55,378 nucleotides of DNA from Octopus sinensis (Eukaryota). Position 1 is the first letter of the stretch, and each line of letters begins with the position of its first letter. Positions 9,915-52,238 of the stretch are shown in pieces. A program made the position numbers and the translations under genes. The DNA is taken from contig NW_021833761.1 in assembly GCF_006345805.1 (NCBI RefSeq), forward strand, positions 1-55,378. Direction: 5' to 3'. The notes beneath the pieces were generated by a model, which saw only the letters and a list, made by a program, of their open reading frames with translations, ran no database searches and had not been told where the DNA came from.

Positions 9915-10119
9915 ATATATATATATGTATGTATGTAGGTAGGTAGGTAGGTAGGTACTGTAAGTTTAGAAGGAATACTTGATAAGTGTAAGCACCTGTA
10001 TATGCCAGATCGTGGCAGAGGTGAGAGAATATATCAAACATAAAAGAGATGTGATAAACCTATTATAATGGGTAACACTACGTGTAATTTTTATTCTGTG
10101 ATGCAATCTTTGGATTAAC

Positions 10120-10229
10120 AATGTTTGCGGCTGAAGAGAGCTTTAAACCATCTTTTGTATCAATAATATACCTATGCTGATGTAATAACGGATTGTTTTT
10201 AAGGCTTGAAACATGTGTACCGCGATATT
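10120..10229 (+). ncRNA. Type I hammerhead ribozyme motif with large loop II, in a roughly 300-bp cassette (9960-10260)
   Basis: Stem I GCGG/CCGC (extendable), CTGAAGA at 10131-10137, 10-bp stem II GAGCTTTAAA/TTTAAGGCTT, GAAAC at 10208-10212, stem III AC-ATGT-GT, GUA triplet. Confidence 0.8.
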
Positions 10230-10277
10230 CGTTGTGTTCTGTTTTCAATTTATGTTTGATATATATATATATATATT

Positions 10278-10613
10278 TAAAGACCCCCTTCGGTCATGAA
10301 TGACCATGGGATTTCACCTAGAATGTTACCCTCCTAGACACAAGTCCGGGCAAGGTTGTTTATGGAAGGCCAGCAGTCGCCCATGCATACCAGCCTCCCC
10401 TCTCCACGCCACCAGTGTTATCCAAGGGAAAGACAAAGGTCGATACAGCTTGGCACCAGTGACGTCGCAACTCATTTCTACAGCTGAGTGAACTGGAGCA
10501 ACGTGAAATAAAGTGCCTTGCTCAAGAACACAACACGCAGCCCGGTCCGGGATTTGAGCTCACAGCCTCACGATCGTAAGCTCGACGCTCTAACCACTGA
10601 GCCATGCACCTTC
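10278..10613 (-). mobile_element. SINE family A, full length (tail type 1)
   Basis: tRNA-like head with an ACG-centred loop (TTACGAT), CORE/Meta-like block, tail ending GAAGGGGGTCTTT; copies at 1 and 34407. Confidence 0.88.
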
Positions 10614-10823
10614 ACCATATATATATATATATATGCACTAATTAAACGATGAATGTTACCTATTATTACCCTAATTATATTCACATATTATCCATTACCG
10701 ACTAAAACAACTTATAACCCACTAACCCAGGCATATACCAATATTAGCCATAAAATAATATTCCGTCTGCTCTGACGATTCTAAAATACAACACATAAAA
10801 ACCCAACAGTATACATTTTTCTA

Positions 10824-10922
10824 CCCCTCTGAAGAGATTTTACCTAGTATAATGATTTTAATAATTGCTATTTAATAATTGCTATTTAATTATTTCCGGT
10901 TTAATTGAAACAGCTGTAAGGG
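10824..10922 (+). ncRNA. Type I hammerhead ribozyme motif with large AT-rich loop II
   Basis: CCCT-CTGAAGA-(imperfect stem II GATTTTACC/GGTTTAATT)-GAAAC-AGCT-GTA-AGGG; palindromic stem III ACAGCTGT. Confidence 0.75.
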
Positions 10923-11144
10923 ACTATGTTTGACTTTTGCAGATAATAATTTGTTTTATTAAACGCTACATCTCCATTTTCTTATTTTCTTTTGAATGAT
11001 TATAAACCATGGCTTATTTATAAACTTATTATTTTCAAGAATATTATTATTCAAAAGTATTTGGTACTGAACCAGTAATTTATTGGGTGATACCATCCCT
11101 TAATATATTTGCTGTATTTCGGGAAGATCGAATCTCGATTGATA

Positions 11145-37477: not shown

Positions 37478-37560
37478 CAGCTGACCGGTGTCTGCTACTC
37501 TAGGCCGATGAAGGACAACGATCCTGAAACACGTGTCCCTAGATGCAGTTCCGGCAGCCG
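37478..37560 (+). ncRNA. Type I hammerhead ribozyme with extended stem I, in a roughly 240-bp cassette (37473-37713) between (TA)n arrays
   Basis: TCTAGG-CCGATGA-AGGA-CAACGA-TCCT-GAAAC-ACGT-GTC-CCTAGA (37499-37543); stem I extends via CTGC/GCAG and CCGG/CCGG. Confidence 0.88.
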
Positions 37561-51114: not shown

Positions 51115-51500
51115 AAGAGAAAAAAATATATGTATATGCGTGTGTCTGTGTGTGTAATGGTCTTGAGAGCGTAGAAACTCAGAGTATTTCCATTGCAGTA
51201 CTCAATCTATACTCTGGAATTAGAGTTTCGAGGAAGATCGAAATTTCGCTGGTGAAGAACATTCAAGTACTACAGGTGCAAATCTAATGTGTGGGTCAAG
51301 TGAAGAGAAAAAAATATATGTATATGCGTGTGTCTGTGTGTGTAATGGTCTTGAGAGCGTAGAAACTCAGAGTATTTCCATTGCAGTACTCAATCTATAC
51401 TCTGGAATTAGAGTTTCGAGGAAGATCGAAATTTCGCTGGTGAAGAACATTCAAGTACTACAGGTGCAAATCTAATGTGTGGGTCAAGTGAAGAGAAAAA
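51115..51500. repeat. 188-bp tandem duplication, apparently perfect
   Basis: 51115-51302 matches 51303-51490; AAGAGAAAAA at all three junctions. Confidence 0.95.
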
Positions 51501-51719
51501 TATAATCCAATTAAGAGACAGAGAAAGATATAATTGTTTCGGTACCACCCTGTTTCTTACGACATTACACAAAAGTTCCGTGCGATAAGTTGCCTAATAT
51601 TTGTGGTTTTATATATACATGAGCATGAAACTTCATCAGGCTTGAATAAATAGCTCAGAAACAATGGCAACCAGATATTAAAATCATTCGTTGTTTATTT
51701 ATTTGGATCTTTCTCTCTC

Positions 51720-51911: not shown

Positions 51912-52005
51912 ATATACATACATACATACATACATACATACATACATACATACATACATACATAACATACATACATACATACATACATACATACATAACA
52001 AGAAA

Positions 52006-52130
52006 TGGCTCTGACGAAAGTAGCATTAATCTTTTTAGATCGTTCAATTTTTCTCAAATGATAAATAGACCAATTGAGTAAACCTACCAGTACCGTACCT
52101 TTAATGGCTACTGGAAACAACTGTGAATCA
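52006..52130 (+). ncRNA. Degenerate hammerhead motif with a loop II of about 70 nt
   Basis: CTGACGA at 52011-52017, stem II AGTAGC-ATTAA/TTAAT-G-GCTACT, GAAAC-AACT-GTG; triplet and stem I decayed; AATAAA and (TA)n follow. Confidence 0.55.
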
Positions 52131-52189
52131 ATTTTACTCTAATAAAGGAAAATATGTAATGACCTTTATTCATATCTTGTCTTATATAT

Positions 52190-52238
<49 letters not shown>

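What the first reader, a model, noticed from the sequence alone, without database searches (positions are those of the whole stretch)
10120..10922. Hammerheads with very large stem II loops
Seen: two unrelated motifs 600 bp apart have intact cores, palindromic or near-palindromic stem III (ACATGTGT, ACAGCTGT) and GUA triplets, but carry about 55-60 nt of AT-rich sequence in loop II. The motif at 52006 has about 70 nt. Natural hammerheads usually have a short loop II that docks on stem I, so standard models would probably miss these. Inference: a distinct structural subclass, in which the loop may carry an RT-binding or promoter element.
Basis: partly seen in the sequence, partly recalled or inferred. 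Interest (0 to 1): 0.7.

Follow-up and report, generated by a model that had tools for sequence, protein, structure and literature searches.

The report
Long-armed hammerheads of Hydra-clade retrotransposons
These are worn, truncated tails of jumping genes (Penelope-like for the first motif, likely so for the other two) that carry a hammerhead-ribozyme motif with an unusually long side arm, predicted to fold as an irregular hairpin; this long-armed form is the commonest hammerhead pattern in this animal genome, and it likely cuts RNA only slowly or in pairs, which is untested.

Summary
The motifs are real: intact type I hammerhead cores (C3 at 10131 and 10829), 70-71 nt between the core halves, 2 found vs 0.015 in shuffles. 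Each is a 5'-truncated copy of a different dispersed repeat. Motif A ends the ~2-kb 3' UTR of a Hydra-clade Penelope-like element; parents of B and of the 52011 motif were not found, and the latter has G at the cleavage position. The insert is not an open loop: in family A it is predicted to fold as a ~24-bp irregular stem II (median z -3.3); support is weak for B, whose window copy has a private duplication. Long arms are the norm here: 27,544 long vs 8,774 short pattern matches; published Hydra hammerheads have 3-10-nt loops. Rfam misses short-armed ones too. No genomic footprint of cleavage (3 vs 1,946 copies). A 9-mer, TGATGTAAT, recurs in about 14% of long arms, a lead for the 'element in the loop' idea. 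The scan noted long-armed PLE hammerheads before on other DNA. New variant of a known kind.

The parts
9951..10044 (-). Inverted 3' 'tail' piece of the family-A insertion (the sequence that follows +45 after the cut site in long-tail copies)
   Evidence: matches the sequence directly after the motif in L005, L008, L017 and others, in opposite orientation
10043..10264 (+). 5'-truncated direct copy of family A (end of 3' UTR / pLTR of a Hydra-clade PLE), ending about 45 nt after the cut site in (TA)n
10099..10107 (+). TGATGCAAT, first of two CARE-like 9-mers around the core (TGATGTAAT in most copies)
10121..10130 (+). Stem I 5' strand (GCGG 10127-10130 pairs with CCGC 10220-10223)
   Evidence: 98% of cells paired in 14 A-lineage sequences
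10131..10137 (+). Core C3-A9 of motif A
10138..10207 (+). 70-nt arm II: predicted extended irregular stem II (8-bp base, middle and distal helices) with a variable terminal loop; holds TGATGTAAT at 10178-10186
10208..10219 (+). GAAA, 8-nt stem III palindrome (one change from the family's perfect palindrome), H17 = A10219
10278..10634 (.). Unrelated dispersed repeat (SINE-like, label inferred) between two TA tracts, separating insertions A and B
   Evidence: matches L007, L028, L046, L019
10656..11104 (+). 5'-truncated copy of family B (PLE-type hallmarks; coding parent not found)
10825..10922 (+). Motif B: stem I CCCT/AGGG, core 10829-10835, arm 10836-10906, GAAA 10907, ACAGCTGT, H17 = A10918
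10860..10887 (+). Tandem duplication (14-nt unit) private to the window copy; family arm is 54-57 nt
51995..52190 (+). 5'-truncated copy of family C; core at 52011, 96-nt arm 52018-52113, G at position 17 (52125) and broken stem I: decayed copy

Best explanation
The motifs are type I hammerhead motifs in truncated copies of dispersed repeats, motif A at the end of the 3' UTR of a Hydra-clade Penelope-like retrotransposon and B and C likely of the same kind, and their insert is predicted to be a long irregular stem II, not an open loop. Shown: anatomy, copy families, link of A to an RT-thumb/linker/GIY-YIG ORF, the same motif in both pLTRs of full-length sister elements, insertions ending 35-210 nt past an intact cut junction. 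Inferred mechanism: with only 2 bp of stem III as a monomer and no short loop 2 to dock on stem I, a lone motif is likely slow or off, so the RNA stays uncut while the RT primes downstream and copies through it; two motifs of a tandem transcript would pair through the 8-nt palindrome (possibly helped by the element's protein) and cut after GUA to give unit-length or circular RNA. The arm is likely a tolerant, lineage-specific outgrowth of stem II that must stay paired so as not to disturb the core, and that has room for overlapping pLTR signals. The window's own copies are decayed fossils.
For: Descriptor vs shuffles. Families: 869, 461 and 1,181 first-look candidates. Of 12 loci picked by the endonuclease alone, 8 carry an A-type motif 2.3-4.6 kb downstream on the same strand and 1 has it as an upstream inverted copy; L062 is continuous from ORF to motif. 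Sister families show RW[AK], DKT, YRDD, CxCX5C, CxxC and CxH, the Hydra features in PMC8557442 section 11. Inverted 5'-truncated partners, two 3' ends per family and (TA)n targets in A, B and C. Arm folding: A median z -3.3, 22 of 27 copies <-1.65, flank control 2 of 30; variation, including a 6-nt indel, concentrates in the terminal loop (0.22 vs 0.01-0.06 in most other parts); A-lineage structure 87% paired vs 27-44% when slid; D/E/F-type arms covariation 0.324 vs 0.225, 0 of 500 shuffles. Palindrome duplex -10 to -11 kcal/mol; perfect palindromes in 20 of the first 30 genome hits. Precedent: PLE hammerheads are slow, dimeric, lack loop docking (PMC4209133); PAc hammerhead is protein-assisted and uncut RNA is the RT template (PMC11167929).
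Against: No cleavage data. Family D copies starting exactly at the cut: 3 vs 1,946 with the junction intact, so no genomic footprint of cutting (no control position was run). In the A lineage two-sided compensatory changes are not above shuffles (1 pair vs 3.7 expected). Arm folding is weak in B (7 of 24 copies, median z -1.1) and middling in C (11 of 21); the window copies score z -1.6, +0.3, -1.1. RNAalifold found no consensus arm structure on sequence alignments. The hammerhead fold is 2-13 kcal/mol above the free MFE. No coding parent found for B or C. Pfam gives only a sub-threshold GIY-YIG hit and no RT hit, so the clade call rests on motifs and visual comparison with published proteins.
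Confidence: 0.7

Rival explanations
1. The arm is kept because it carries a sequence-specific signal of the pLTR: a DNA site TGATGTAAT matching the C/EBP-ATF (CARE) consensus for the internal promoter, and/or an AWTAAA poly(A) signal 16-28 nt before the cut; pairing merely lets the ribozyme tolerate it.
For: TGATGYAA in 11 of 49 distinct arms vs 0.48 expected and in 3,888 genome-wide motifs vs 1 control; it keeps its letters while its predicted partner differs (5' strand in the A lineage, 3' strand or terminal hairpin in others); family A has two copies within 80 nt of the core and none in the rest of 2.16 kb. CARE consensus TGATGxAAx (PMC5175342 passage); Penelope has an internal promoter (PMC2377424 abstract). 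AWTAAA in 19 of 49 arms vs 7.7.
Against: Only about 14% of long arms hold it; absent from B, C, H and the young full-length A4 family, altered in D/E/F. Lineages are related, so counts are not independent; the near-fixed position in non-A arms fits common descent or an RNA contact as well. An upstream second copy in only 3 of 31 motif-bearing arms. The 9-mer also resembles a duplicated hammerhead core. No expression data.
Confidence: 0.15
2. The arm is a folded docking or protein-binding domain: an A-rich bulge or internal loop replaces loop 2 in the contact with stem I, or binds the RT-EN protein, and makes the ribozyme active.
For: Length clusters near 55-60 nt in many families (median 57 over 20 clusters); recurring A-rich 3'-side bulge; covariation in D/E/F arms; PAc hammerhead needs its protein.
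Against: Arm length runs from 45 to 98 nt with different shapes; the bulge lies at different distances from the core; 8,774 short-armed motifs share the same core and palindrome; RT start sites lie outside the arm; no conserved extended stem I seen.
Confidence: 0.2
3. The hammerhead is catalytically irrelevant in these elements and the arm is neutral AT-rich bloating, like the elements' long UTRs and Asn-rich ORF inserts.
For: No cut-site footprint; elements are 4.4-4.6 kb vs <3 kb for published Hydra elements; private duplications are tolerated in genomic copies; hammerhead mutants did not affect PAc insertion in vitro.
Against: Core, GUA triplet, stem I and an 8-nt palindrome are kept with different letters across families whose arms and flanks do not align; arms fold better than shuffles in 11 of 20 clusters.
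Confidence: 0.12

Closest known systems
Hydra-clade PLE hammerheads (Craig et al. 2021, PMC8557442; passages, section 11, supplement parts 1-2 of 59 and a term search in it)
   Same: Type I, near the 3' end of a C-terminal GIY-YIG element with RWK/DKT/CxCX5C, (TA)n targets, inverted 5'-truncated partner; U.U or extra bases at the foot of stem II occur.
   Different: Published stem II 3-7 bp with loop 2 of 3-10 nt (Hydra-1_oBim 7 bp + 8 nt); here 45-98 nt between the core halves. Published stem III mostly 3-4 bp with a 1-3-nt centre; here an 8-nt palindrome. Elements 4.4-4.6 kb vs <3 kb.
Minimal and variant PLE hammerheads (Cervera and de la Pena 2014, PMC4209133; parts 1-2 of 4 and passages)
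   Same: In pLTRs, mostly single truncated copies or opposite-strand pairs, palindromic helix III, larger than usual helix II, no recognisable loop docking, many families per genome.
   Different: 'Larger' helix II there is 6-8 bp; here about 17-27 predicted pairs in several helices. Supplementary figures not seen.
PLE-X1 hammerheads of spike mosses (File S2 of PMC8557442)
   Same: PLE hammerheads with a long loop 2 (35 and 29 nt), flagged there as deviating from canonical.
   Different: Chlamys-related EN-minus plant elements, two cases; arm shorter (53 nt total in PLE-X1_sMoe); not described as a class.
PAc (Poseidon, Anolis) hammerhead (Frangione et al. 2024, PMC11167929; passages and section 3 part 2)
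   Same: Two RT start sites downstream of the hammerhead defining a tail; uncut RNA is copied.
   Different: Short stem II overlapping the start codon; here the ORF starts about 200 nt after the cut site.
Discontinuous CLEC2 hammerheads (seen through review PMC2950038, passages)
   Same: Large insertions that hide a hammerhead from pattern searches.
   Different: Insertions in loop 1 or 3, mammalian mRNA, not in stem II of a transposon.

Membership tests
Type I hammerhead ribozyme | Core CUGANGA ... GAAA ... UH with three helices, open end in stem I | tested here: met
   Motifs A and B; families 23 of 30 and 19 of 30 intact cores. Window copy C fails (G17), family C 15 of 25 intact.
Type I hammerhead ribozyme | Short loop 2 docking on stem I (canonical fast hammerheads) | tested here: not met
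   Arm of 70, 71 and 96 nt; no conserved extended stem I in constrained folds. A bulge-mediated contact cannot be excluded.
Type I hammerhead ribozyme | Self-cleavage after H17 | not testable with these tools
   No bench data; indirect genomic test negative; only contigs available.
Type I hammerhead ribozyme | Match to an Rfam hammerhead model | tested here: not met
   No hit (150 of 154 rows shown); a short-armed control is missed as well.
PLE-associated dimeric hammerheads | Palindromic short stem III | tested here: met
   15 of 23 (A), 13 of 19 (B), 9 of 15 (C) intact-core copies are perfect 8-nt palindromes.
PLE-associated dimeric hammerheads | Located in both pLTRs flanking an RT-EN ORF | tested here: met
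   Sister families A4 (L144, L145) and D (L149, L156, L158); family A linked to the ORF's 3' part. Not shown for B or C.
Hydra clade of PLEs | C-terminal GIY-YIG without CCHH, CxCX5C linker, CxxC and CxH near the end | tested here: met
   Family A copies; A4 and D.
Hydra clade of PLEs | RWK and DKT motifs in the RT N-terminus | tested here: inconclusive
   Present in sister families A4 (RWA, DKT) and D (RWK, DKT); family A's own N-terminus was not recovered (A is 49-63% identical to A4).
Hydra clade of PLEs | Placement in the RT phylogeny | not tested
   Published reference proteins were read but were not available to the scripts.
Hydra clade of PLEs | Families B and C: linked coding sequence | tested here: inconclusive
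   No linked ORF in the B and C loci examined; one Hydra EN fragment beside a B copy lies beyond its 3' end and is probably a separate insertion.
Non-LTR retrozymes | Short head-to-tail tandem repeats, non-coding | tested here: not met
   Copies are dispersed, 5'-truncated at variable points, with inverted partners; A leads into an ORF.
Naiad/Neptune PLEs | N-terminal EN (Naiad) or CX2-5CxxC plus CCHH (Neptune) | tested here: not met
   EN is C-terminal and of the CxCX5C type.

The most novel reading that the evidence does not exclude
In Hydra-clade retrotransposons of this lineage, stem II of the hammerhead has become a cassette with two codes: as RNA a long hairpin that holds the ribozyme in a slow, dimer- or protein-gated state, and as DNA a C/EBP-ATF4-type site (TGATGTAAT) of the internal promoter, so that thousands of copies scatter stress-responsive enhancers embedded in ribozymes through the genome.
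Probability: 0.12. Interest if true: 0.72.

Novelty: new variant of a known kind. Interest (0 to 1): 0.42.

Why it matters
Published descriptors cap the distance between the core halves, so hammerhead counts in such genomes may miss the majority form: under one pattern long arms outnumber short ones about 3 to 1 (27,544 vs 8,774). Dozens of natural arm variants on one core, including young full-length elements, give a ready series for asking what PLE hammerheads do, which is still open. If the arm is only a tolerated outgrowth, the finding is a catalogue correction.

Tried and rejected
Naiad link (prompted by 'HHR_half_core') and Neptune assignment: rejected on domain order and linker motif. 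A-B heterodimer: duplex only -2.7 kcal/mol, and the two are separate insertions with another repeat between. Intron in the arm: no GT..AG of workable size in A (sequence). AATAAA in the short-armed G family: not conserved in the listing, dropped. Pseudoknot from arm to downstream flank: not supported by constrained folds, not formally tested. RNAalifold on sequence alignments gave no arm structure. One search used a misregistered structure string and is disregarded; one reference (L050) had wrong coordinates and is disregarded. Search for B's parent with an upstream piece returned mostly simple-repeat matches; with the tail piece, no linked ORF. Sequencing runs: no RNA holder listed on record; laid runs were contigs and showed no joints or pile-ups, uninformative; only the 5' pLTR and ORF of L144 were laid. 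Lunse et al. 2017 and Arkhipova et al. 2017 were not held: known only through the review passage and recall; they and unseen supplements (PMC4209133, the 2026 preprint) may contain long-stem-II examples. Literature searches found no description of 50-100-nt stem II arms as a class.

Full report
Observation. The two motifs are at the stated places. A descriptor scan of the window found exactly two type I hammerheads, with C3 at 10131 and 10829, spans of 70 and 71 nt between CUGANGA and GAAA, and H17 at 10219 and 10918; 200 local Markov shuffles gave a mean of 0.015. The third motif (C3 52011) has a 96-nt span but G at position 17 and a broken stem I. The three share no significant similarity. 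Rfam gave no hammerhead hit in the window (150 of 154 rows shown), but it also missed a canonical-core motif with a 21-nt arm, so the miss is not caused by the arm alone.

What they belong to. The window lies in a 2.7-Gb genome with many TA microsatellites. Each motif is a copy of a dispersed repeat: 869, 461 and 1,181 first-look candidates, 40 scored each. The family-A insertion in the window is a 5'-truncated direct copy (10043-10264) ending in (TA)n, with an inverted piece of its own tail directly upstream (9951-10044). B spans 10656-11104, and another repeat lies between the two. Longer A copies run about 2 kb upstream into an ORF with an RT thumb, linker and GIY-YIG domain (L062). Of 12 loci chosen by the endonuclease, 8 have the A-type motif downstream on the same strand, 1 has it as an upstream inverted copy and 3 show none in the range fetched. 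Relatives with full ORFs (842-947 aa) carry RW[AK], DKT, YRDD, CxCX5C, CxxC and CxH, and have a long-armed motif in both pLTRs with units of 4.4-4.6 kb. These are the defining features of the Hydra clade (PMC8557442 section 11); Pfam gives only a weak GIY-YIG hit, and no tree was built. For B and C no coding parent was found, but they show the same inverted partners, two 3' ends and TA targets, so PLE origin is inferred.

The 'loop'. In family A the arm folds better than shuffles in 22 of 27 parsed copies (median z -3.3, median 24 bp), against 2 of 30 for flanking element sequence; B gives 7 of 24 and C 11 of 21. The window copies themselves score -1.6, +0.3 and -1.1. In A, departures from the majority are 0.22 in the terminal loop, where a 6-nt indel splits two subfamilies, and 0.01-0.06 elsewhere except the CpG-rich 3' strand of stem I (0.12). 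Across 14 A-lineage sequences a hand-set structure keeps 87% of cells paired (27-44% when slid), but two-sided changes are not above shuffles. Across 17 arms of the D/E/F type, picked by eye, the covariation score is 0.324 vs 0.225 (0 of 500 shuffles; relatedness not controlled). B's window arm is 15 columns longer than in the other 29 copies because of a private tandem duplication; its family keeps a 4-bp foot, a 2x2 loop and a 6-bp helix in 23-30 of 30 copies per pair. So the better description is an extended, irregular stem II, firm for A and weaker for B and C.

How common. One pattern with 45-90 nt between the core halves matches 27,544 places (reversed control 168); with 8-30 nt, 8,774 (control 99). 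Not all are intact: among the first 30 hits 20 have a perfect palindrome, 18 a stem I of 3 bp or more and 17 a stem II foot of 4 bp or more. 126 motifs in the loci then held fell into 20 clusters, median arm 57 nt, 11 of 20 at z<-2. Published Hydra hammerheads have stems II of 3-7 bp and loops of 3-10 nt; the only long loops in that table are 35 and 29 nt in spike-moss PLE-X1.

Mechanism. Stem III can form 2 bp as a monomer but an 8-bp duplex between two motifs (-10 to -11 kcal/mol for family sequences, -6.0 for window A, -1.0 for window C); A with B gives only -2.7. Insertions end at two points per family downstream of the cut site (A about +45 in 17 and +120 in 13 of 32 matches; A4 +54/+122, D +35-41/+162; B up to +210), so the copied RNA had an intact junction. 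In the young family D, 1,946 copies keep the junction and 3 start at the cut; two of the three are inversion junctions and one was not resolved; no control position was run. This matches the PAc result that uncut RNA is the template and that the ribozyme needs the protein (PMC11167929), and the dimer model for PLE hammerheads (PMC4209133; review PMC6765202). I therefore infer a slow, dimer- or protein-gated ribozyme whose stem II is free to grow as long as it stays paired. Cleavage itself is untested; RNA data were contigs only.

A signal in the arm? TGATGYAA occurs in 11 of 49 distinct arms (30 unselected loci plus 20 picked for diversity) vs 0.48 expected and in 3,888 genome-wide motifs (control 1). 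It keeps its letters while its predicted partner changes between lineages, and family A has a second copy just upstream and none in the remaining 2 kb. It fits the CARE consensus TGATGxAAx (PMC5175342), and Penelope promoters are internal (PMC2377424 abstract). Against: absent from B, C, H and the young A4 family, altered in D/E/F; lineages are related; an upstream copy in only 3 of 31; it may be a relic of a duplicated core. AWTAAA is in 19 of 49 arms vs 7.7 expected, but not in A, B or C. These are leads only.

Novelty. Hammerheads in PLE pLTRs, palindromic stem III, larger helix II and lack of docking are known. Searches found no account of 50-100-nt arms as the dominant form in Hydra-clade elements; two key papers were not held, and the 2026 retrozyme preprint (parts 1-2 of 5), PMC3088659, PMC13725137, PMC7229834 and PMC2950038 were read as passages only. 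Earlier scan notes report long-armed PLE hammerheads on other DNA; none matched this sequence. Verdict: real, a new variant of a known kind, interest 0.42.

Noticed in passing
window 37505-37536 (+): A fourth hammerhead motif with a 14-nt arm, CCGAUGA core (U4 to C), ACACGTGT palindrome, C17 and a 5-bp stem I, between TA tracts; not hit by Rfam.
   Followed up: no
L061 1343-5807: A Gypsy-type LTR retrotransposon with identical 238-bp LTRs sits inside the 3' UTR of a family-A copy; a further 4.4-kb insertion splits the same copy upstream.
   Followed up: no
L062 4632-5450; L148, L149 ORFs: Hydra-clade ORFs here carry Asn-rich inserts of 150-250 aa between RT thumb and endonuclease and 1.6-2-kb 3' UTRs with TA/TG tracts; elements are 4.4-4.6 kb against <3 kb published.
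   Followed up: partly
L143, L144, L145: Near-identical full-length 842-aa ORFs with hammerheads in both pLTRs: a young Hydra family suited to bench tests.
   Followed up: partly
L174, L175, L177, L185, L188: The most frequent long-armed family among the first 100 genome hits (55-nt arm) lies about 700 nt downstream of a Hydra-type endonuclease.
   Followed up: partly
L117 2759, L124 6188: Short-armed motifs with a GC-rich 6-bp stem I and GUC triplet next to Hydra fragments.
   Followed up: no
window 51115-51504: A near-perfect (99.5%) 188-bp-period direct duplication just upstream of motif C; possibly a young repeat or an assembly artefact.
   Followed up: no
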